The notes under the pieces are model-generated. The model ran no database searches. It worked only from the letters and a program-made list of their open reading frames with translations, and was not told where the DNA came from. A stretch of DNA of 64,000 bases from Candidatus Aminicenantes bacterium. Lineage in GTDB: Bacteria; Acidobacteriota; Aminicenantia; Aminicenantales; Aminicenantaceae. The stretch is taken from positions 241 through 64,240 of the forward strand of contig JAOUKO010000001.1 of NCBI GenBank assembly GCA_029882525.1. Direction: 5' to 3'. Shown piece after piece: positions 3,130-37,564 of this stretch. The first letter of the stretch is position 1, and every line of letters starts with the position of its first letter. A program made the translations under genes and the position numbers.

Positions 3130-3237
3130 AAATATCAGAATCTCTACCCTATGGCAATAAAAACTTTGACAACATTATTCCGTTTGGATAATAATCAAAT
3201 CTCCCCCGATTCATAATCATACTGGGAGGAATCATCA

Positions 3238-4434
3238 ATGGATATTTCCAAAAGGGGTCAAGAAATCCAGCCTTCCCCCATAAGAAAGCTCAAGCCTTAT
3301 GCGGATGAAGCGCTGGAACGGGGAATTCACGTCTATTTCCTGAACATCGGGCAGCCCGATATTCCCACGCCGCAGCCGATCATGGACGCCTTCCACAATT
3401 ACAACGAGAAAGTTCTGAGCTATGGACCGGCACAGGGATTTCTCGAATTAAGGCAGGCCATTGCTGGCTATTTCCGCTCTTACGACATCCCCATCGACTC
3501 GGAGAATGTGGTCATCACCATCGGCGGCTCTGAGGCCATCCATTTTTCCTTCAGCGCAGTGGCCGACCCGGGAGATGAGATCATCATTCCTGAGCCGTTC
3601 TACACCAACTATAACGGATACGCGGCCTTCGCCAGCGTCAAGATCGTTCCCCTCACCCTGCGGGTTGAGGATGGGTTTCGCCTTCCGCCAACAGAAGAGA
3701 TCGAAGCCAGGATCACTCCCCGGACAAGGGCGATTCTGCTCTGCTCTCCGAATAATCCCACCGGAACCGTATACACGCCTGAGGAACTGGAGAGGGTCAC
3801 TGCTGTTGTGAAGAAGCATGACCTGTTCTTGATCGGAGACGAAGTCTACAAGGAATTCGTTTACGACGGCGGGACGCACAAGAGCGTTCTGGAGTACGAA
3901 GAGATCAAAGAGAGGGTCATTGTCGTCGACAGCATATCCAAGCGTTTCAGCAGTTGCGGTGCCCGGGTGGGCGCGGTCATCACCTGGAATGAGGATGTGT
4001 ACCAGGCCGTCCTCAAGTTTGCCCAAGCCCGTCTCTGCCCTCCTTCAGTTGAACAGAAAGCCGCGCTTGCGGCCTACCAGATGGGCCTGGATTATTTTCA
4101 GCCTGTTAAAGAAGAGTACCAGAAAAGGAGAGATGTTCTGTTCGATGGCTTGAAGGACATCCCGGGGATCGTCATCCATAAACCCCAGGGCGCTTTCTAT
4201 ATCATCGTCAGGCTGCCGATCAAGGATTGTGAGCATTTTGTCCAATGGATGCTTACCGATTTTCACCATAACCAGGAAACGGTGATGGTGGCTCCAGCCC
4301 AGGGTTTCTACTGCACGCCCGGCAGAGGCAAGGATGAGGTGCGCATAGCCTACGTGCTCAAGGAGGAGGATCTGAAGCGGGCCATCGTCGTCTTCAAGGA
4401 AGGACTGAGGAAGTACCAGAGCCTGTTTTTGTAA
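3238..4434 (+). CDS. PLP-dependent aminotransferase class I/II (aspartate aminotransferase-like)
   Basis: 398 aa; PIRKL, LNIGQPD, conserved SKRF lysine region; GGGAGG RBS 8 nt upstream. Confidence 0.75.
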   Translation: MDISKRGQEIQPSPIRKLKPYADEALERGIHVYFLNIGQPDIPTPQPIMDAFHNYNEKVLSYGPAQGFLELRQAIAGYFRSYDIPIDSENVVITIGGSEAIHFSFSAVADPGDEIIIPEPFYTNYNGYAAFASVKIVPLTLRVEDGFRLPPTEEIEARITPRTRAILLCSPNNPTGTVYTPEELERVTAVVKKHDLFLIGDEVYKEFVYDGGTHKSVLEYEEIKERVIVVDSISKRFSSCGARVGAVITWNEDVYQAVLKFAQARLCPPSVEQKAALAAYQMGLDYFQPVKEEYQKRRDVLFDGLKDIPGIVIHKPQGAFYIIVRLPIKDCEHFVQWMLTDFHHNQETVMVAPAQGFYCTPGRGKDEVRIAYVLKEEDLKRAIVVFKEGLRKYQSLFL

Positions 4435-4637
4435 ACCTTGAACCGTTCCTTAGCCGTTAAGTAGCCTGAATGGCACTAGCGGCAGGTTGAATACAGTATT
4501 GAGGGGGCACATAACGACAGGCCCCGTCCCGCTTTCTATCCGCAATTTCGGCTCATCCACTTTACTTGAGAGACCATCTCAAATTCAGTGATAATGGAGT
4601 GCTCGGGCAGAATTCTTACCTCACGAAAGCACCTCTA

Positions 4638-4806
4638 TTTCCGTAATAATTAATAATGAAGGTGCAGTCTGTTACAGCGACGGTTCCCCTCCATCCTTGC
4701 CAAGACCCTCCCCCCCTCCTCCATGGGCTTCGGATGGAGAGGAACCGTCGCTGCACTTCCCCATTAGCTCAGATGTTTTCCTTATCACGGAAACAGAGAT
4801 GCTTGC
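4638..4806 (+). repeat. Family-A intergenic hairpin element, copy 1 (arms 4677-4696 / 4732-4751)
   Basis: Shares >80% identity with elements at 8608-8777, 12140-11779(-), 23905-24156, 37321-37500; inverted repeat gcgacggttcccctccatcc / ggatggagaggaaccgtcgc with conserved loop gccaagaccctccc..ccatgggcttc. Confidence 0.8.
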
Positions 4807-4815
4807 TTACCTTAC

Positions 4816-4844
4816 TTGAATTTTGAAAGCGATGTGTGTATAGT
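4816..4844 (+). promoter_or_regulatory. sigma-70-type promoter for ppdK (TTGAAT-17bp-TGnTATAGT)
   Basis: -35 TTGAAT 4816-4821, 17-bp spacer, extended -10 TGTGTATAGT ending 4844, 30 nt upstream of RBS GAGAGGAG. Confidence 0.5.
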
Positions 4845-8473: not shown

Positions 8474-8607
8474 TCATTCCTCTATTACAAGGAATCTCTG
8501 CTTGGAGTCTATCATATCGTTCCTGTGTGTTCAATTCTATACGGTTTTAAATAGTTTTCACCAGTGTTCATTTCGAATCCGCGATTCTCGTTTTCCGGAA
8601 GCATCTT

Positions 8608-8777
8608 TTTTTCCGTGACAGTTAATAATGAAGGTGTAATCTGTCACGGTGCCGGTTCCCCTCCATCCTCGCCAAGACCCTCCCACCCTCCTTCATGGGC
8701 TTCGGATAGAGGGGAACCGGCGCCGCACTTCTCAATTGGTCGAATATTTCCCTCATCACGGAGATAGAGATGCTTTC
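8608..8777 (+). repeat. Family-A intergenic hairpin element, copy 2
   Basis: Aligns along its length with copy 1; stem mismatch displaced relative to copy 1 (stem preserved). Confidence 0.8.
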
Positions 8778-9207
8778 TCGTTTTCCTTGAAGTTTGACGT
8801 CCATCCAGGAGTGTGCTATTTTTCTTATTCTGAAGGATTTCCTCAGACCCGAGTTCCAAAAGGCCATGAACAGGTTTTTTTCCATGCTCTTAAACCTGAC
8901 ATCTTTAAGCAAGTCACTCCCTTGGAACAAAATCACTGCTCCTGAACTGGACTCCAAGCTGATCGAACGACTTAAGTCCCTCGGCTGCATCAAGGAGAGA
9001 TGAACGGGAGCAGCCCCCGAGAAATTTGATTTTAATTGATCTGCATCGTTTATTATTATAGAGATGTATGGAATGCGGGCTTGGACGGGTTGCCCAGACT
9101 GATGAGCGGCCTGAAATTCATCCTTTATCAGGTTGATTGATATAGATTCATCAAAATTTAAGCTTAGCTTTACGACCGCTGGTTTTTTTGTTATTTAATA
9201 TTGTCAC

Positions 9208-10499: not shown

Positions 10500-11729
10500 T
10501 TATTCCTGGAGGAAGATGTGGGCAAACACTTTTGCGTCCCCGACCATGTTGTCGATTATGCAGTATTCGTTGGGCTGATGGGCTGTCTCATCGAGTTTGG
10601 CCCAGCAGGCGGCTTCAAAATTGGCTCTTCGAAAAAGAGCCGCGACGGTTCCGCCGCCAATCCCGATGGCCTTGCCTTCCTTTCCGTAGATGGCCTTGAT
10701 CGCTTTTTTCAGGGCATGGACAACCGGCGCCTCTGCTGATGTCGGGGGGGCTGCAGGGGCTTTCTGGGTTTCTTTCACCTCAATTTTCACCTTGAACTCT
10801 TTTTCGATCTTGGCCGTCAGCTTTTCGATTTCGGCTTGGACTTCTTCTGTCGTGTACCTGGGCAAAATGCGGCTGTCCATGTAGAAAACATCTTCTCCGG
10901 GGATGGTGTTGATGTTGGGAACGTTGGGCTCTTTTTTTGTGGGCTCGAAAGTGGAGATGTCCGGGTCAAAGAGAGGATCCTTATAGGGGAAAATCTTATA
11001 GAGTTTGTTCAGCTCCGTGATGAGGAACGAGGCAGCCTTGAAGCTGTTGACTCCCTTTTCAGGAGTCGATCCGTGAGCCTGTTTGCCCAGTGTCTTGAAT
11101 TTCAGCCAGAGGATGCTTTTTTCAGCGACTTCGATCATCGTCCCCTCCTCGTTCCCGGCGTCCGGAACGATGATCAGGTCATTTTTCCGGAAAGCGTCGG
11201 TCTTGTTGAGGACATAATCGATTCCTTTCTCACTTCCTGTTTCCTCGTCAGCCACAAGAGCGATGCCGATATCATAGTTGGTCTTTATCCCTTCCTCAAA
11301 AAAAGCCTTTATAGCGAAGAGCGAGGCAACCATGTCCTGCTGGTTGTCTTCCACTCCCCGGCCGTATATTTTGCCTCCTTCCACCCATGCTTTGAAAGGA
11401 TCCCCTCTCCATAAAGCCAGCTCTCCAGGAGGAACAACATCCATATGGGTCATCACCCATATGGTTTTGGATGAATTTTTTCCCCTGAAGAATGCGAGAA
11501 TGTTCGGCCGGCAGCCGGCAGGAGCATCCAGGTCTGGAGCTTTGATGACCTCTATCTCGCTAAAGCCGTTTTTTTTCAGGAAGTCTAGCAGGACATCTGC
11601 TTTTTCGCCTTCCCCTTCTCCTCCGCTCGATGGTGCGATGGCTGGAATGGAGCTGAGTTTGATCTGTAAATCGATCATCTCATCGCGGAAGCTGTCGATT
11701 TTATGGAAGATTTTTTCCAGCTCAGTCAT
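10500..11729 (-). CDS. M20-family metallopeptidase (ArgE/DapE-like)
   Basis: 409 aa; MTHMDVVP, VADEETGS, dimerisation-domain pattern of M20 peptidases. Confidence 0.7.
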   Translation of the reverse strand: MTELEKIFHKIDSFRDEMIDLQIKLSSIPAIAPSSGGEGEGEKADVLLDFLKKNGFSEIEVIKAPDLDAPAGCRPNILAFFRGKNSSKTIWVMTHMDVVPPGELALWRGDPFKAWVEGGKIYGRGVEDNQQDMVASLFAIKAFFEEGIKTNYDIGIALVADEETGSEKGIDYVLNKTDAFRKNDLIIVPDAGNEEGTMIEVAEKSILWLKFKTLGKQAHGSTPEKGVNSFKAASFLITELNKLYKIFPYKDPLFDPDISTFEPTKKEPNVPNINTIPGEDVFYMDSRILPRYTTEEVQAEIEKLTAKIEKEFKVKIEVKETQKAPAAPPTSAEAPVVHALKKAIKAIYGKEGKAIGIGGGTVAALFRRANFEAACWAKLDETAHQPNEYCIIDNMVGDAKVFAHIFLQE

Positions 11730-11778
11730 GGGGATTCTCCTTTTGGTGAGAATAGTAGCACTTGCCTGAGCTTAAGGC

Positions 11779-12140
11779 AAGCTTTTTGCGTGTTCTCTAT
11801 TTCCGTGATGAGGGAAACATCCCACCTAATGTAAACGCAGTAAATAAGGGTACAATCTCTGTGCGGCCTGGATGCCGCCCTCAACCCCCGGACCCCGAGG
11901 GAACCTGTCCCGTCGGTTCCCCCCGTCGGATAAGCCGACGAGTCCCCCCTCCGCTACGGGGGCGCAGGGGCGGCATCCAGGCCCGCTCAATAGAGGATGT
12001 CACACGAATTATTGCGTTAATATGAGTTGAGAAGTGCGGCGGCGGTTCCCCTCTATCCGAAGCCCATGAAGGAGGGGGGGAGGGTCTTGGCTGGGATGGA
12101 GAGGAATCGGAGTTTTAACAGATTACACCTCCATTAAAAC
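11779..12140 (-). repeat. Composite repeat: family-A element (copy 3) interrupted by GC-rich B-module (approx 11829-12020)
   Basis: Reverse complement aligns with copy 2 up to cacttctcaa, then with the 37120-37313 B-module, then with the family-A tail ...gggatgtttccctcatcacgg. Confidence 0.75.
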
Positions 12141-12152
12141 CTCAAGAGCATT

Positions 12153-12734
12153 CTAGGCTTCCTTAGGGCGGCTAAGCATCCTGATCCCGACAAAAGAGTA
12201 ATCCACTGCAGAGAGAACGGTGAAAATAAGTGTCAGGAGATAGAGCCAGATGAGCAGCGGGAATGAAACCTGTCTGGTGTTGAGGAAAAGGACGATGAGA
12301 ATGACCATGACCTGGAGGACAGTGCAACTTTTTCCGAGAAGGGTGGGCAGAAAGCTTTTTTGGCCTCTAAGTAAATAGAGGATGAAGGCGGCAGAGACGA
12401 TGAGCAGATCCCGGCCGATAACAGTTAGGGTCAGCCAGAGAGGAATGACGTTCGGAGAGTTCAGGGAAGGGATGGTCAGGATAATGAAGGAGGCGGTCAT
12501 CAGGAGTTTGTCCGCGGCTGGGTCCAGGAAGGCTCCTATTTTTGTTTTCATATGCCAGATCCGGGCCGTGAACCCGTCCAGGACGTCCGTGAAGCCAGCA
12601 AAAAGAAAGACAACGAATGCTTCGGGAGTCTTCCTCTTGACCATCAAGAACAGGAAGACGGGAATGAGGAGTATTCTCAAGATGCTGAGAAGGTTGGGCG
12701 GGTTAAGGACTGTGTTTTTCTTTTCTCTATTCAT
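12153..12734 (-). CDS. pgsA: CDP-alcohol phosphatidyltransferase (phosphatidylglycerophosphate synthase-like)
   Basis: 193 aa, DG..AR.....T..G...D...DK motif, 4-6 TM helices. Confidence 0.65.
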   Translation of the reverse strand: MNREKKNTVLNPPNLLSILRILLIPVFLFLMVKRKTPEAFVVFLFAGFTDVLDGFTARIWHMKTKIGAFLDPAADKLLMTASFIILTIPSLNSPNVIPLWLTLTVIGRDLLIVSAAFILYLLRGQKSFLPTLLGKSCTVLQVMVILIVLFLNTRQVSFPLLIWLYLLTLIFTVLSAVDYSFVGIRMLSRPKEA

Positions 12735-19326: not shown

Positions 19327-19606
19327 AGGAACATTTCCAAATCCGTGATGAAAGAATGATTTTGGAAATCCCCTCGCTCCCTTCAGATTTTTAACGCCAT
19401 TCCTTCACCGCCCTCTGCGGCGGTCTCAAAACTGCGCACTTCAACGTTAAGCTCAAAAGGAATATCCGAACTATCATCTCACATCTCCCTTTGATTCTCT
19501 TCTGCTCAAACATTTCGACCGGCCGGAAGGCTTCCCTTGAGGGCGTTTCAGTAAGGCTAAATCTTCAAGGTCGCTTCGGATTTTTCCAAAATCATTTCCA
19601 TCCGTC
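19327..19606. repeat. Family-B MITE copy (TIR GGAAC..GGAAATC..CGCTCC..GATTTTTAACGCC)
   Basis: Ends match the 40-bp terminal inverted repeats of the 31705-32103 element; internal similarity to 31740-31990. Confidence 0.6.
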
Positions 19607-23795: not shown

Positions 23796-23904
23796 TCAGG
23801 AGTGAGAAGCTTCTTCTATAAAAAAGAAATGGAAAAAATTATTACTACCTTAATCGCAATCATCAGAAATGTCAAGTTGAGGCATTGGCATGTCAGCATC
23901 TCTC

Positions 23905-24156
23905 TCTCCTTGACAGCTGATTATGAAGGTGTAGTCGTTAGCAGCGCCGGTTCCCCTCCATTCAAGCCAAAATCCTTCCCTCCTTCATGGGCTTCGGATG
24001 GAGAGGAACCGCCGCCGCCCTTCTCAACTCATATTAATGCAATCATTCGTTTGACATCCTCTACTGAGTGGACCTGGATGCCGCACAGAGATTGTAACCT
24101 TATTTACTGCGTTTACATGAGGCCAGATGGTTCTCTCACCAGGGAAATGCTTCCGA
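23905..24156 (+). repeat. Family-A element copy 4 with truncated B-module insertion (approx 24037-24113)
   Basis: Hairpin arms ccggttcccctccattc / ggatggagaggaaccg; B-module ends catattaatgcaat...ttactgcgtttacat inserted at same point as in the 11779-12140 copy. Confidence 0.75.
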
Positions 24157-28799: not shown

Positions 28800-31664
28800 A
28801 TGGGGACTGAAAGAGAGAGAGTTAAAATCCTGGAGCAAGCGGAGAGAAGCGTAAAGCGGGGAAAACTCCAGGAAGCCATTAATGAGTACTTGAAGCTCTT
28901 AGACTTCGATGCCCAAGATGTAAACGTCAGGAACCTCCTGAGCGACCTCTATCTCCGGGCAAATCAAAGGGACAGAGCGATAGAGGAAATGTATAAAGTG
29001 GCCAGCTATTACGAAGGAAGAGGCATGTATTCCCAGTCCATGGCCGTTTATAAAAAGATCAACAAATTGAATCCCGGAAACATTGAATCCAGCATGAAAC
29101 TCGCCGACCTTTACTATACCCAGGGATTTCTCTCTGAAGCCAAGGCAGAATATTCGAAGATTGCCAGGGGCTTGATGAAGAATCACCGGACAAAGGAAGC
29201 CATTTTTCTGTATGAGAAGCTCCTGAAGCTGGATAGAAAAGATGTTCAGACATGTTTGACTTTGGCCGATCTTTATACTCGAGGGGGAGAAGTTGACAAA
29301 GCCGTGGACAGGCTCAATGACGTGGCCGAATTCAGGATCCGGGATAATTCGCTGAAGGAAGCCCATGAAATCCTTAAAAGAGCCCAAAAGATTAAAGCTG
29401 AGGATTCGAGGACTTTTTCCAACCTGGTGTCCATCCTTAAAAAAGAGAAAAAGACCAAGGAGGCTCGCAAGCTTATCGATGAAGTCCTTCAGAAAAAAAA
29501 GGAAGATGTGACTGCACTCAGGCTTTTGGGGAACCTGCATTTTGATGAGGGTGATTTTGAGAGGGCTGAAGTCGTATTCTCTCAGGTCATCGCCCTAAGG
29601 TCTAAAGATGTCGAAGCAAGAGTGAAGCTGGGCCGAATCTCCATCTTCAAAGACAACCTTGATAAGGCTTTTAAATTTTACGAACCTTTGGTTGAGAGCT
29701 TGATCAAGAAAGGGAAGCCGGAAAAGGCCATCGGGCTTCTCGGGCTCATTCTTGCTTCCAAGAAAGCTCATCTGCCGACTTTAAAATCCTTGGCTTCTAT
29801 CTATAAAACGATAGACCAGAGAAAGAATCTCGAGATCGTTTACCGCGTTCTTCTGGATGAATACCGGAGAGATAATAATAAGAAAGAATATGCGTCTATT
29901 CTGGGTGAGCTTGTCGAGATAAATCCTGAAGATAAGGAGTTAGCGAACCAGTACACACTCTTGAAGGGAGGCGGTGCAATCCCTGAGGTGGCGAGAGAGC
30001 CTGAGGTGGAGAAGGCAGCGTTAGAGGAGGAAGCGCGAAAAGCCGCCGAAGAGGACGCCAAAAAAGCAGAAGAGGAACGTTTGAGGGCTGAGGAACAAGT
30101 CAGGCAATTGGGTGAAGAAAAGAGACGTGCTGAAGAAGAGCGGTTGAAAGCCGAAGATGACGCTAAAAAAGCAGAAGAGGAACGTTTGAGGGCCGAAGAG
30201 GAGGCTAAAAGAGTAGAGGAGGAGCGGTCGAAAGCTGAAGGGGAGGCGCGAAAAGCCGTCGAAGAAGAAGCCCTGAGAGCCGCCGAGAAGGAAGCGAGGA
30301 AGAGAGTCGAAGAAGAGGCCCGGAAAGCAGAAGAAGCTGCCCAGAGGGCAGAGCAGGCGGCCCGAAAGGCTGCCGAAGAGGAAGCCAGACGTGCAGTCGA
30401 GGAAGAAGCCAGGAGTCGGGCCGAGGAGCTAGCCGAACGAGCCGAAGCAGAAAAGAAACGTGCGGAAGAAGAACGTTTGCGTGCTGAGGAGGCAGTGAGG
30501 AAAGCGGAGGAAGAGAGAAGGAGAGCGGAGGAGGAACGTTTTAAGGCCGAGCAAGAAGCAAAGCGCTTGGAGGAAGAAAAAAGAAGAGCCGAAGAAGAAC
30601 GAAGAAAAGCCGAAGAAGGAGCCCCGAGAGCCGAAGAGGAGCGGATGCGGATCGAGGAAGAGACCAGGCGCATGGCCGATGAGGAGGCGCGAAAAGTCGC
30701 CGAAGAAGAAGCCCGGAGAGCCGCCGAAGACGAAGCCAAACGAGCCGCTGATGAAGAACGAAAAAGGATGGAAGCTTTGGAAGCGGCCCACGTGTCCACC
30801 GAAGAGATAAGAGAGTTAGAGGAGATTATCGAGGAGGAAAAGGAGGAAGAACCTGCCGCAGCTCCAGAGGGGTCTGATGAGATGCTGGAGATGAACCTGG
30901 CCCAGGCAGACCTCTACATTAACCAAGGTCTACTCCGGAATGCGAAGAGAATCCTCGAGAATTTGCGCATAAATTTTCCCAACAATCCGAGAATAGAAGA
31001 GAAGCTTTCAGCACTGGGACAGGTGAGCACTCAGGTCAGCGTCGACGAGATTCTTCAACGGGTGACCGAGGTTTCTGAGAAGGAAAGCGAATTAATTGGC
31101 AAGAGAGGAGTGGCTAAAGAGATTCCAGAGCAACCAAAAGAGGCAACGAAGGAAACGGCTGCTCCAGCAGAGAAGGCCTCAATCCCGGAGGAAAAAGAGA
31201 GGAAAGTTGAAAAGAAAGAAATCCCCCTTAAGAAATTAGAGGATAAAGAGGAAGAAGTCAAGAAGACAGCCGAGAAGGAGGTAGCGGCCAAAGAGGATAA
31301 GATGGACCTCTTTCATTCTGGATTTTCATTTCTTGAGAAAGGCGAGTTTGACCAGGCCATCGAAATATTTAAGCAGGCGTCCAAGGATGAGAGCTTAAGA
31401 GAGGAATGTTTCCATGCCCTTGGTCAGTGTTACAAACAGAAAGATGAATATTTAGAAGCAGCAAAATGGCTGAAGAAAGCCCAGGAGCTGACCGTCGAAG
31501 GATCCGATCAATTTCTGGCTTTGAGTTATGAGTTGGCGTCGCTCTATGAAGAAGCCAAGGAACTGGAGAAAGCCTTGGATCTCTACGAAGATATAAAGGA
31601 ATGGGATGCGAAATACAGGGATATCAGGAAGAAGACCAAGGCTTTAAAAAAGAGCATTAAATAA
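28800..31664 (+). CDS. TPR-repeat protein with central ~250-aa E/R/K/A-rich single-alpha-helix region
   Basis: 954 aa; N- and C-terminal TPR units; residues about 395-650 almost entirely AEEERLRAEEEAKR-type repeats; start overlaps rnhB stop (TAAGATG). Confidence 0.6.
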   Translation: MGTERERVKILEQAERSVKRGKLQEAINEYLKLLDFDAQDVNVRNLLSDLYLRANQRDRAIEEMYKVASYYEGRGMYSQSMAVYKKINKLNPGNIESSMKLADLYYTQGFLSEAKAEYSKIARGLMKNHRTKEAIFLYEKLLKLDRKDVQTCLTLADLYTRGGEVDKAVDRLNDVAEFRIRDNSLKEAHEILKRAQKIKAEDSRTFSNLVSILKKEKKTKEARKLIDEVLQKKKEDVTALRLLGNLHFDEGDFERAEVVFSQVIALRSKDVEARVKLGRISIFKDNLDKAFKFYEPLVESLIKKGKPEKAIGLLGLILASKKAHLPTLKSLASIYKTIDQRKNLEIVYRVLLDEYRRDNNKKEYASILGELVEINPEDKELANQYTLLKGGGAIPEVAREPEVEKAALEEEARKAAEEDAKKAEEERLRAEEQVRQLGEEKRRAEEERLKAEDDAKKAEEERLRAEEEAKRVEEERSKAEGEARKAVEEEALRAAEKEARKRVEEEARKAEEAAQRAEQAARKAAEEEARRAVEEEARSRAEELAERAEAEKKRAEEERLRAEEAVRKAEEERRRAEEERFKAEQEAKRLEEEKRRAEEERRKAEEGAPRAEEERMRIEEETRRMADEEARKVAEEEARRAAEDEAKRAADEERKRMEALEAAHVSTEEIRELEEIIEEEKEEEPAAAPEGSDEMLEMNLAQADLYINQGLLRNAKRILENLRINFPNNPRIEEKLSALGQVSTQVSVDEILQRVTEVSEKESELIGKRGVAKEIPEQPKEATKETAAPAEKASIPEEKERKVEKKEIPLKKLEDKEEEVKKTAEKEVAAKEDKMDLFHSGFSFLEKGEFDQAIEIFKQASKDESLREECFHALGQCYKQKDEYLEAAKWLKKAQELTVEGSDQFLALSYELASLYEEAKELEKALDLYEDIKEWDAKYRDIRKKTKALKKSIK
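30040..30640 (+). repeat. Imperfect ~105-bp tandem repeats inside CDS 28800..31664
   Basis: aaaaaagcagaagaggaacgtttgagggc recurs at 30061, 30166, variant at 30461 and 30531; generates the Ser/Ala-rich antisense ORF artifact. Confidence 0.6.
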
Positions 31665-31704: not shown

Positions 31705-32103
31705 GGAACGACAGGGAAATCGAATCGCTCCAGTCGGATTTTTAACGCCATTCCCTCCCCATCCTTCTCGGTCCTGCGGAACTCCGCATGTCTATCTTAT
31801 CTCACGCCTGAAGCTCTATCTTTTTTCAATCCCGCTTGATCAACCACTCCGTGCTCAAACAGTCCTCGGACCCGACTGTGTCGGTTTCCCTCGAAGGACA
31901 ACATCGTTGCGGAGAAACGATGTTGGGGGGATCCAAGGGGGTATGTCCCCTTGGTCGCAGGACGCATGTCCGAGAAGGGGAGGCAGCGAGTCGCAAGGAA
32001 GCGAGCGAGCGTTGGAAGGGGGAAGGCAGAGCGCTTTCCCCTCCAAGGAGGCTCGGGAAGGCTAAATCCTCCGATGTCGCTCTGGTGATTTCCCTGTTGT
32101 TCC
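31705..32103. repeat. Family-B MITE, full-length copy with ~40-bp terminal inverted repeats
   Basis: Left end GGAACGACAGGGAAATCGAATCGCTCCAGTCGGATTTTTAACGCC; right end reverse complement GGAACAACAGGGAAATCACCAGAGCGACATCGGAGGATTTAGCC; no coding capacity. Confidence 0.7.
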
Positions 32104-36931: not shown

Positions 36932-37117
36932 CTTTTCCTCCGATTAAAGACTCCATGGGTGAGTATCATATTTTACTGGCTAAGTTATCATGGAATATTC
37001 TTATTTTCAAGATGAGTGACTCGACTTTTCATTCCTCAGGCCCTTTTAATTCAGGAAAAGAACATTCATAAGGAGCGAATGGAAACATCACAAATGCCGT
37101 AAAAGAAAGAAGCTAAT

Positions 37118-37500
37118 ATTAACGCAATAATTCATGTGACATCCTATCTTGGGCGGCATGAATGCCGCCCTCAAGCCCCCGTAGAGGAGGAGGGACCCGT
37201 CGGTTTATCCGACGGGGGGAACCGACGGGACAGGTTCCCTCGGGGGCCGGGGGCTGAGGGCAGCTTCAGGCCGCCTAGAGATTGTAACCTTATTTACTGC
37301 GTTGACATTAGTAAATGGAGCCTCTCGATCTCCCGTGACTTTTAATAATTAAGATGTAATCTGTTACCGCGCCGGTTCCCCTCCATCCAAGCCAAGACCC
37401 TCCCACCCCCCCACCATGGGCTTCGGATGGAGAGGAACCGTCGCCCCACTTCTCCCTTAGGTCAGATGTTTCCTTCATTGCGGAATTAGTGACGCTTGCA
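37118..37500 (+). repeat. Composite repeat: GC-rich B-module (37120-37313) followed by family-A hairpin element copy 5 (37321-37500)
   Basis: B-module bounded by ttaACGCAATAATTC ... TTATTTACTGCGTTGACAtta (imperfect TIR AACGCAaTAA / TTAtTTacTGCGTT, TTA flank both sides); A part aligns with copies 1-4. Confidence 0.75.
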
Positions 37501-37564
37501 GAGTGAATTAGGTTTTTGAATTTTAGTGAATTTTCAATTAAAATAATGGTGCGGGATTTCCAGA

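What the first reader, a model, noticed from the sequence alone, without database searches (positions are those of the whole stretch)
4638..4806. Family-A ~170-bp hairpin element: five copies, every one immediately upstream of and co-oriented with the next gene
The copies sit at 4638-4806(+), 8608-8777(+), 12140-11779(-), 23905-24156(+) and 37321-37500(+). They share a conserved 5' lead (tgacagttaataatgaaggtgtaatctgt), a near-perfect 16-20-bp inverted repeat (cggttcccctccatcc / ggatggagaggaaccg), a conserved 33-nt loop (gccaagaccctccc..cctcct.catgggcttc) and a conserved tail (tcagatgtttcc.tcatcacgg.a.agagatgcttgc). Stem mismatches occur at different positions in different copies while pairing is kept, which suggests selection on structure. 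All five lie 50-430 bp upstream of a start codon on the same strand (ppdK, HDAC-like, M20 peptidase, ffh, acyltransferase-like). Simple terminators lack this orientation bias. It would fit a promoter-proximal cis-regulatory element, a transcribed leader or small RNA, or a protein-binding site. The conserved loop argues for sequence-specific recognition.
Basis: seen in the sequence. Interest (0 to 1): 0.7.

Follow-up and report, generated by a model that had tools for sequence, protein, structure and literature searches.

The report
Promoter-hugging miniature transposon (MITE) family
The "hairpin element" is a 182-bp non-coding miniature transposon (MITE) that has multiplied in an uncultured Aminicenantes bacterium; it is ordinary as a kind, except that many copies sit at exactly the same distance upstream of the -35 box of pre-existing gene promoters.

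Summary
All five copies are real (core arms: 11 hits against 0.8 expected). They are not an RNA leader or small RNA. Each canonical copy is 182 bp, with 22-25-bp terminal inverted repeats (G(G/T)AAGCATCTCTATTTCCGTGA) and a 9-bp target-site duplication, which marks a MITE. About 73 distinct insertion sites were recovered from related sediment metagenome contigs. There were no hits in Rfam, in GTDB representative genomes or in viral contigs. The element folds equally well on both strands and covariation is weak. The 33-nt loop is inverted in 4 sites. Orthologous copies diverge faster than their flanks.

The claimed orientation bias is weak. Three of the five window copies lie between divergent genes, where any orientation looks co-oriented. 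In informative tandem sites the count is 23:9 (p≈0.02).

One feature is unexpected. In 21 of 60 element ends that face a gene start, a sigma-70-type promoter begins 16-20 nt (14 at exactly 18) outside the end motif, 7 bp beyond the duplication. The rate elsewhere is 1.2%. Either end of the element can abut a promoter.

Relatives that lack the element keep the same promoters for ppdK and the acyltransferase gene, so these promoters pre-date insertion. This suggests promoter-edge target choice.

The parts
4625..4806 (+). MITE copy 1 (182 bp). TIRs are at 4625-4649 and 4782-4806. The central hairpin arms are at 4677-4696 and 4732-4751, around a 35-nt C-rich loop.
4616..4624 (.). 5' copy of the 9-bp target-site duplication of copy 1 (TTACCTCAC). 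The 3' copy, TTACCTTAC, is at 4807-4815.
   Evidence: 8 of 9 identical
4816..4844 (+). ppdK promoter-like site TTGAAT-17-TATAGT, which directly abuts the 3' duplication of copy 1. It is conserved in a relative that lacks the element (L077).
8597..8777 (+). MITE copy 2 (181 bp).
8778..8786 (.). 3' copy of the 9-bp target-site duplication of copy 2 (TCGTTTTCC). The identical 5' copy is at 8588-8596.
   Evidence: 9 of 9 identical
8794..8822 (+). Promoter-like site TTGACG-17-TATTTT. Its -35 box starts 18 nt after the ...GATGCTT end motif of copy 2, which is 7 nt beyond the duplication.
11788..12162 (-). MITE copy 3, with degenerate TIRs and 375 bp long because a second repeat family is nested inside it. 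The stop codon of the upstream pgsA-like gene (12153-12155) lies inside the 5' TIR.
11830..12026 (-). Nested family-B repeat, which itself holds a G+C-rich palindrome (family C), inside copy 3.
23892..24154 (+). MITE copy 4. It carries a nested family-B repeat without the family-C core at 24028-24117, and its 3' TIR has a 7-nt deletion.
23870..23875 (-). TTGACA -35-like hexamer facing accB. It starts 18 nt outside the 5' end motif of copy 4. The -10 candidate TAAGGT is weak and fails the scan criteria.
37316..37499 (+). MITE copy 5.
37516..37544 (+). Promoter-like site TTGAAT-17-TAAAAT of the acyltransferase gene. Its -35 box starts 18 nt outside the end motif of copy 5. It is conserved in relatives that lack the element.
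37113..37307 (+). Family-B repeat (with the family-C core) that is not nested inside a family-A copy. It abuts the 5' side of copy 5 and is part of a block of about 500 bp of inserted DNA (37013-37508) that is absent from relatives.

Best explanation
[quoted passage not shown] It is a 182-bp non-coding DNA transposon remnant, bounded by 22-25-bp imperfect terminal inverted repeats (5' G(G/T)AAGCATCTCTATTTCCGTGA ... TCACGGAAATAGAGATGCTT(C/N)C 3').

Shown:
- Insertion duplicates 9 bp of target DNA.
- Copies sit in intergenic DNA of an uncultured Candidatus Aminicenantes lineage.
- Other repeat families are nested in some copies.
- Relatives have empty sites.
- One third of the ends that face a gene start lie exactly 16 bp (element tip to -35 hexamer) from a sigma-70-type promoter. 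In the two cases that could be tested, that promoter pre-dates the insertion.

Inferred:
- The element is moved in trans by a DDE transposase of an autonomous insertion sequence with matching ends. The G(G/T)AAGC termini hint at an IS66-like partner.
- The transposition complex chooses its target by reading the -35 hexamer, or the DNA architecture of a promoter occupied by RNA polymerase. This would explain the single-nucleotide spacing at either end of the element.
- The central hairpin and C-rich loop are structural cargo of the element, not a conserved RNA. The loop inverts by recombination or template switching between the 20-bp arms.

The likely consequence for the host is passive. The element pushes upstream DNA 191 bp away from the core promoter and places a strong palindrome between the upstream gene and that promoter.
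For: Terminal repeats and length:
- Full-length copies are regular, 175-179 bp between the end motifs.

Target-site duplication:
- 11 of 34 copies have at least 8 of 9 identical flanking bases in fixed register, against 0.9% when the flanks of different copies are paired.

Copy number and distribution:
- About 73 distinct sites are in hand: 74 after removing duplicates by flank similarity, minus the later-found L018/L021 orthologue pair.
- There was no Rfam match, no hit in GTDB representative genomes and no hit in viral contigs.
- The host is a Candidatus Aminicenantes genome.

Evidence that it acts as DNA, not RNA:
- It folds equally well on both strands.
- The covariation term is +0.26.
- The loop is inverted in 4 sites.
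- The element diverges faster than its flanks between orthologous loci.

Promoter spacing:
- 21 of 60 gene-start-facing ends have a promoter-like site whose -35 starts 16-20 nt from the end motif (14 at exactly 18). Other windows score 1.2% and gene-end-facing ends score 1 of 25. Binomial p is about 2e-25 and Fisher p = 0.002.
- Both the 5' and the 3' end of the element show this.
- The duplication lies between the terminal repeat and the promoter, and there is no other motif in the 16 intervening bases.

Empty sites with the promoter kept:
- ppdK in L077.
- The acyltransferase gene in L160/L161, L162-L164 and L165.
Against: - No autonomous element with matching terminal repeats was found in the 719 kb held, and I could not scan further.
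- The closest empty sites come from relatives only 71-74% identical in protein, so no recent presence/absence polymorphism is shown.
- The terminal repeats are the least conserved part (0.74-0.75 identity) and the 5' stem arm the most conserved part outside my search pattern (0.86). This could mean that the hairpin has acquired a function.
- Promoters are consensus predictions only. Sigma-70-type promoters have not been mapped in Aminicenantes.
- Gene calls are from my own ORF and codon-bias caller.
- Loci were collected through a 24-nt core pattern, so the sample is biased towards well-kept copies.
- Two thirds of gene-start-facing ends do not show the 18-nt spacing. Copy 1 is at 11 nt and copy 3 at 8 nt.
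Confidence: 0.85

Rival explanations
1. The element began as a MITE but has been taken over by the host as a promoter-upstream module. It could be a binding site for a regulator or nucleoid protein, or an insulator that stops read-through from the upstream gene. On this reading the fixed spacing reflects selection for function, not target choice.
For: - The spacing to the -35 box is fixed.
- The central hairpin arm is better conserved than the terminal repeats.
- In tandem sites the element often starts 0-60 nt after the upstream stop codon.
- There is a modest orientation bias of 23:9.
- Double changes in paired positions are slightly in excess.
Against: - Either end can abut the promoter, and the flipped-loop variant also spread.
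- Orthologous copies diverge faster than the adjacent promoter DNA.
- Relatives run the same promoters without the element.
- Random insertion followed by selection would have to enrich a single-nucleotide position by about 30-fold at dozens of unrelated genes.
- No terminator-like feature was found.
Confidence: 0.15
2. This is the first reader's view: a structured cis-regulatory RNA (leader or riboswitch-like) or an independently transcribed small RNA. Its C-rich loop, which resembles the anti-Shine-Dalgarno sequence, would be recognised in a sequence-specific way.
For: - The fold is very stable (z = -6.1).
- The loop contains CCCTCCT.
- The 5' lead contains a weak sigma-70-like motif, GTGACA-16-TAATCT.
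- Copies are co-oriented with the downstream gene in 23 of 32 tandem sites.
Against: - The promoter of the downstream gene lies downstream of the element.
- The opposite strand folds equally well.
- The covariation term is not supportive.
- Stem mismatches split evenly between G-U and C-A types, so neither strand is favoured.
- The loop is inverted in 4 sites.
- There is no Rfam family.
- The presence of target-site duplications shows spread by transposition.
Confidence: 0.05
3. A REP/REPIN-type palindromic repeat spread by a RAYT (IS200/IS605-like) enzyme, or simply a family of transcription terminators.
For: It is a palindromic, intergenic, highly repeated element that is nested with other palindromic repeats.
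Against: - It has 9-bp target-site duplications and long terminal inverted repeats.
- It is 182 bp long.
- It is rare between convergent genes, with 3 of 59 sites.
- No U-tract follows the stem, and no terminator-like site was called.
Confidence: 0.03

Closest known systems
Correia repeat-enclosed elements (CREE) of Neisseria
   Same: - Both are small MITEs (about 100-180 bp) with terminal inverted repeats of about 25 bp.
- Both are present in many copies, mostly just upstream of genes.
- Both are associated with sigma-70 promoters.
- The inner part of a Correia element can invert (review PMC10969869; PMC2649163 abstract).
   Different: - From my own knowledge, Correia elements duplicate a TA dinucleotide, whereas this family duplicates 9 bp.
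- Correia elements carry or create the promoter hexamers in their own ends (PMC2649163 abstract). Here both hexamers lie outside the element and outside the duplication, and they pre-date insertion.
- There is no sequence similarity, and the host phylum is different.
IS66-family insertion sequences (possible source of the transposase)
   Same: IS66 terminal repeats are 20-30 bp long and start with GTAAGCG (PMC11946415; the example GTAAGCGTCCGG... is in PMC12888890). This element's repeats are 22-25 bp long and start with G(G/T)AAGCAT.
   Different: - IS66 makes 8-bp duplications, whereas this element makes 9-bp duplications.
- No IS66-type genes were found next to matching terminal repeats.
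- The resemblance rests on 6 bases only, so it is a lead and not a test.
Putative mobile promoters (Matus-Garcia et al. 2012, PMC3488235)
   Same: In both cases the same sequence is repeated upstream of unrelated genes within one genome, and the authors list MITE-like spread as one mechanism.
   Different: In that study the repeated unit is itself the promoter region. Here the repeated unit stops 16 bp short of a non-repeated, pre-existing promoter.
Mobile elements that home to gene-expression signals
   Same: The idea is the same: a mobile element uses a conserved expression signal as a landmark, which gives a fixed distance between the insertion and the signal. Examples, all recalled from my own knowledge and not checked here, are IS900/IS902 between the ribosome-binding site and the start codon, group IIC introns after terminator hairpins, and Ty3 at RNA polymerase III start sites.
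   Different: My two targeted literature searches found no bacterial transposon or MITE reported at a fixed distance upstream of the -35 hexamer. The literature coverage was limited.

Membership tests
Bacterial MITE | Small size (under about 500 bp) with no coding capacity | tested here: met
   Canonical copies are 182 bp, 175-179 bp between the end motifs. The only ORFs that cross a copy are long antisense or out-of-context ORFs that my codon-bias caller rejected.
Bacterial MITE | Terminal inverted repeats | tested here: met
   GGAAGCATCTCTATTTCCGTGA pairs with TCACGGAAATAGAGATGCTTCC. The two outer helices are 77-90% paired across 23 copies.
Bacterial MITE | Target-site duplication of fixed length and variable sequence | tested here: met
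   The duplication is 9 bp in fixed register. 11 of 34 copies match at 8 or more of 9 bases, against 0.9% in the control. Copy 2 matches at 9 of 9.
Bacterial MITE | Many dispersed copies at unrelated loci | tested here: met
   There are five copies in the window and a sixth just to its left (L001 169-350). About 73 distinct sites were found in related contigs.
Bacterial MITE | Empty sites (presence/absence between genomes) | tested here: met
   L077 lacks copy 1 but keeps the flanking sequence and the promoter. L160, L161 and L162-L165 lack copy 5. These are distant relatives (71-74% protein identity), so recent mobility is not shown.
Bacterial MITE | An autonomous insertion sequence with the same terminal repeats that supplies the transposase | not testable with these tools
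   None was found in the 719 kb held.
Correia element (CREE) | TA target duplication, with promoter hexamers formed by the element ends | tested here: not met
   The duplication is 9 bp. The hexamers lie 16 bp outside the element tip.
REP / REPIN | A 20-40-nt palindrome or a pair of them, no target duplication, and an associated RAYT gene | tested here: not met
   The unit is 182 bp with terminal repeats and 9-bp duplications. I did not look for a RAYT gene.
Any Rfam RNA family | A covariance-model score at or above the family's gathering threshold | tested here: not met
   There were 0 matches in the whole window. The best sub-threshold hits are plant or animal microRNA hairpins scoring 20-27 bits against thresholds of 76-230.
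Intrinsic terminator | A G+C-rich stem with a 3-8-nt loop, followed by a U-tract | tested here: not met
   The loop is 33-35 nt and no T-run follows the stem. No terminator-like site was called inside any copy.
IS66-derived element | Terminal repeats starting with GTAAGCG, and an 8-bp duplication | tested here: inconclusive
   The termini are G(G/T)AAGCAT, which is similar. The duplication is 9 bp rather than 8 (the family features are from PMC11946415).

The most novel reading that the evidence does not exclude
The transposase that moves this MITE selects its target by measuring from the -35 hexamer of sigma-70-type promoters, or from promoter-bound RNA polymerase. It would insert so that the element tip lies 16 bp upstream of the hexamer (9-bp duplication plus 7 bp), with either end of the element. 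That would be a bacterial DNA transposon that homes to the upstream edge of promoters. It would be a 'safe-harbour' strategy comparable to Ty3 at polymerase III genes, and I found no report of such a case.
Probability: 0.4. Interest if true: 0.7.

Novelty: new variant of a known kind. Interest (0 to 1): 0.45.

Why it matters
As a kind, this is an ordinary bacterial MITE, and its first value is practical.
- It explains repeated 'hairpins', spurious gene calls and contig breaks in Aminicenantes assemblies.
- It should be masked before anyone searches these genomes for regulatory RNAs.

The positional rule is the interesting part. Dozens of unrelated genes have the element tip exactly 16 bp from a pre-existing -35 box, at either end of the element.
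- If this reflects target choice, it is a new way for a bacterial transposon to find harmless landing sites. It would also be a potential tool for placing DNA next to promoters.
- It also gives a free, independent annotation of where sigma-70-type promoters lie in a phylum that has no cultured genetics.

Tried and rejected
- **Rfam:** at gathering thresholds on the whole window, and at permissive E-values on copy 1, only chance microRNA hairpin hits appeared.
- **GTDB representative genomes:** an exact-core scan gave 0 hits. A profile search of 80 loci around ppdK relatives also gave 0 hits.
- **Viral contigs:** 0 hits.
- **Empty sites among the first 76 loci:** none found. Empty sites came later, from the ppdK relative L077 and from homologues of the acyltransferase gene.
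- **Autonomous partner element:** I looked for stray terminal repeats in the held loci. Only one weak orphan match turned up.
- **Target-site consensus:** no motif was found within the duplication and its flanks.
- **Family B as a control for promoter spacing:** almost all family-B copies are nested inside family A at one position, so there are too few independent copies.
- **Enrichment in divergent intergenic regions:** this was considered as a sign of function. The greater length of those regions largely explains it.
- **A whole-element inversion between strains (L021 against L018):** this proved to be the same loop-inverted architecture, with an ambiguous strand call from the profile search.
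- **Literature:** searches for Aminicenantes MITEs and for transposons targeted to the -35 box found no precedent.

Full report
**1. Observation**

The five copies are real. The 16-nt arm motif CGGTTCCCCTCCATCC occurs 11 times in the window with up to 3 mismatches, as ten arms in five pairs plus one chance hit. Shuffles give 0.82. Reading the copies and aligning them confirms the lead, the inverted repeat, the C-rich loop and the tail.

The alignment also shows that copies 3 and 4 are long only because foreign sequence sits between the 3' stem and the tail.

**2. Anatomy: a MITE**

A metagenome scan with a 24-nt core pattern returned 74 loci. A profile built from copies 1, 2 and 5 found the element about 100 times in the window plus those loci. 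After removing duplicate loci by flank similarity, about 73 distinct sites remain.

The alignment of 37 full-length copies shows that similarity begins and ends sharply. It begins at 5' G(G/T)AAGCATCTCTATTTCCGTGA and ends at TCACGGAAATAGAGATGCTT(N)C 3'. These are 22-25-bp terminal inverted repeats. The distance between the two end motifs is 175-179 bp in canonical copies.

Immediately outside the ends, 9 bp are repeated in direct orientation and in fixed register.
- 11 of 34 copies match at 8 or more of 9 bases. The rate is 0.9% when the 5' and 3' flanks of different copies are paired.
- Copy 2 has TCGTTTTCC at both 8588-8596 and 8778-8786.
- Copy 1 has TTACCTCAC and TTACCTTAC at 4616-4624 and 4807-4815.

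Small size, terminal inverted repeats, target-site duplication of variable sequence, many dispersed copies and nesting with other repeats together define a MITE.

The host is an uncultured Candidatus Aminicenantes bacterium from estuarine or marine sediment. The family is absent from Rfam, from GTDB representative genomes and from viral contigs.

**3. The element behaves as DNA, not as a conserved RNA**

- Copy 2 folds to -78.1 kcal/mol on the + strand and -78.3 kcal/mol on the - strand.
- On 23 full copies the RNAalifold covariation term is +0.26 kcal/mol, and only 3 of 20 core pairs show any double change.
- With the full-length structure, double changes slightly exceed the shuffled and slid controls: 13 pairs against 8.4±1.9. 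That tool warns this can arise from relatedness alone. In a palindromic transposon it can also arise from repair within the palindrome.
- Stem mismatches split about evenly between G-U and C-A types, so neither strand is favoured.
- The 33-35-nt loop is exactly inverted relative to the asymmetric outer arms at four sites: L010, L013, L072 and the L018/L021 orthologue pair. Three of these share a marker substitution in the 3' arm next to the stem, so a flipped variant itself spread.
- Mean pairwise identity by region is 0.74-0.75 for the terminal repeats, 0.78 for the lead, 0.86 for the 5' stem arm, 0.80 for the loop and 0.76 for the tail. The loop is therefore not specially conserved. The 24 nt that I used as the search pattern score 0.93 by construction.
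- Between orthologous loci of diverged strains the flanks are 90-95% identical, but the element is only about 75-90% identical. This argues against purifying selection on each copy.

**4. Orientation**

I called genes with a simple ORF and codon-bias caller, which reproduced the public gene calls in the window region. The sites with both neighbours called fall into four classes:

| Intergenic context | Sites |
|---|---|
| Divergent | 23 |
| Tandem, co-oriented | 23 |
| Tandem, anti-oriented | 10 (9 after correction) |
| Convergent | 3 |

One strand call was ambiguous, and correcting it gives 23:9 in tandem sites, p = 0.02. Excluding the loop-inverted copies gives 21:8, p = 0.024.

In divergent regions any orientation is 'co-oriented' with one neighbour, and this applies to window copies 2, 4 and 5. 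The five-of-five in the window therefore carries a chance probability of 0.25. The distribution among intergenic classes roughly follows their summed lengths.

**5. The unexpected feature: fixed spacing to promoters**

In the full-length alignment the aligner lined up TTGAC about 18 nt beyond the 3' end. It also lined up the mirror image, TGTCAA, beyond the 5' end of copies whose 5' side faces a gene start.

I scored complete promoter-like sites using the criteria of the scan tool: TTGACA, a 16-18-nt spacer and TATAAT, with at least 9 of 12 matches.

| Flank class | Flanks with a -35 starting 16-20 nt outside the ...GCTT end motif |
|---|---|
| Facing a gene start | 22 of 61, 14 of them at exactly 18 (21 of 60 after removing one orthologue duplicate) |
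| Facing a gene end | 1 of 25 |
| Other 5-nt windows in gene-start-facing flanks | 1.2% |

The binomial p is about 2e-25 and Fisher p = 0.002.

Further points:
- Both element ends behave this way.
- The duplication lies between the terminal repeat and the promoter. The layout is element tip, 9-bp duplication, 7 nt, then the -35 box.
- Those 16 bases carry no motif of their own.
- In the window the scan tool calls 8794-8822 (copy 2) and 37516-37544 (copy 5) at this spacing. It calls 4816-4844 (copy 1) directly against the duplication.
- Copy 4 has a perfect TTGACA at the 18-nt position facing accB, with a weak -10.

**6. The promoters pre-date the insertions**

- *ppdK.* L077 is a relative with 73% identical PpdK and no element. 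It keeps ATTCTTA...CTTGAATTTT...GTGTATA at the same distance from the start codon. It aligns with the window once copy 1 and one duplication copy are removed.
- *The acyltransferase gene.* Homologues at 71-74% identity were found and their contigs fetched. They have no element, yet they keep TTGAAT-17-TA(A/G)AAT at the same distance from ATG. They also share the left-flank sequence ACTGGCTAAGTTATCATGGAATAT..TATTTTCAAGA with the window. About 500 bp of the window (37013-37508, holding family B and copy 5) is therefore inserted DNA.

The promoter was not created by the element and did not evolve next to it. The spacing must come from where the element lands or from where it is retained. Random insertion followed by selection would have to enrich one nucleotide position about 30-fold at dozens of unrelated genes. 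Target choice is the simpler reading, but it is an inference.

**7. Mechanism proposed**

The element is a non-autonomous DNA transposon moved in trans by a DDE transposase that binds the terminal repeats. It makes 9-bp staggered target cuts. It has a preference for the DNA 7-16 bp upstream of -35 hexamers.

This preference could work through direct recognition of the hexamer. The terminal repeat itself contains GTGACA 18 nt from its tip, which mirrors the host TTGACA 16 nt outside the tip. Alternatively, it could work through the bent DNA at the upstream edge of a promoter occupied by RNA polymerase.

The termini resemble the GTAAGCG start of IS66-family repeats. The duplication length differs, however: 9 bp here against 8 bp for IS66. 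This is only a lead. No autonomous partner was found.

**8. Comparison with known families, and novelty**

The closest known kind is the bacterial MITE. Correia elements of Neisseria are the nearest in behaviour: they lie near genes, are linked to promoters, and can invert their inner part. Correia elements, however, duplicate TA (my own knowledge) and carry the promoter hexamers in their own ends. REP/REPIN elements, intrinsic terminators and Rfam families all fail their defining tests.

My literature searches found no Aminicenantes MITE and no transposon targeted at a fixed distance from the -35 box. I rate this a new MITE family with an unusual positional rule.

**9. Caveats**

- Promoters are consensus predictions.
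- Gene calls are my own.
- Loci were collected through the conserved core, which biases the sample towards well-kept copies.
- Related strains are present. I removed duplicates by flank similarity on both strands.
- The empty sites come from distant relatives.

Noticed in passing
window 11830-12026 (-), 24028-24117 (+), 37113-37307 (+); also about 25 loci, e.g. L013 5214-5406, L061 3086-3279: There is a second repeat family (B), about 90 bp without its core, with ends resembling ...TTAACGCAATAA / TTATTTACTGCGTT.... It is nested inside family A at the same internal position in many copies, so an A::B composite seems to have spread as a unit. Copies that stand alone are rare.
   Followed up: partly
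window about 11863-11988 (-) and 37150-37275 (+); L061 about 3130-3250 against L067 about 11650-11770: A third family (C) is a G+C-rich palindrome (GGGCCTGGATGCCGCC ... GGCGGCATCCAGGCC) inside family B. Its roughly 80-nt interior is reverse-complemented between two orthologous loci of diverged strains. Copy 4 lacks it altogether. Inversion between short inverted repeats therefore seems frequent in this lineage.
   Followed up: partly
window 12153-12162: The stop codon of the pgsA-like gene (12153-12155) lies inside the 5' terminal repeat of copy 3. The insertion therefore supplies the last codons of that protein. Many other copies start 0-10 nt after the upstream gene.
   Followed up: no
window 8622-8930 (-) (= L001 9279-9587): Public gene calling predicts a 102-aa hypothetical protein with no Pfam hit that runs antisense across copy 2. 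It is probably a spurious ORF created by the MITE.
   Followed up: no
L157-L159 (contigs of a strain whose acyltransferase is 90% identical): All three contigs end about 184 nt upstream of the gene, inside the 3' stem of the element, so the repeat breaks assemblies. These copies also carry yet another nested palindrome (GGGGGGACGTTCCCTGCTGGGACACTC ... GGGTGTCCCCCTCTGGAACATCCCC) in place of the element's tail.
   Followed up: no
window 19364-19414 and 31715-31765: A 51-nt direct repeat, 80% identical (GGAAATC...TCGCTCC..TC.GATTTTTAACGCCATTCC.TC.CC..CCT), occurs in two unrelated places. It is unexplained and may be another small repeat family.
   Followed up: no
window 30021-30760, within the ORF 28800-31664: The 954-aa ORF contains a long run of imperfect 21-nt (7-codon) repeats rich in GAA, GAG, GCC and AAA. 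This suggests a Glu/Ala/Lys/Arg-rich coiled or disordered segment.
   Followed up: no
L001 169-350 (-), about 300-490 nt to the left of the window start: A sixth copy of family A lies just outside the window. It has a perfect TTGACA 16 nt outside its 5' end motif. That makes six copies in about 65 kb. If this density is representative, the genome holds hundreds of copies.
   Followed up: partly
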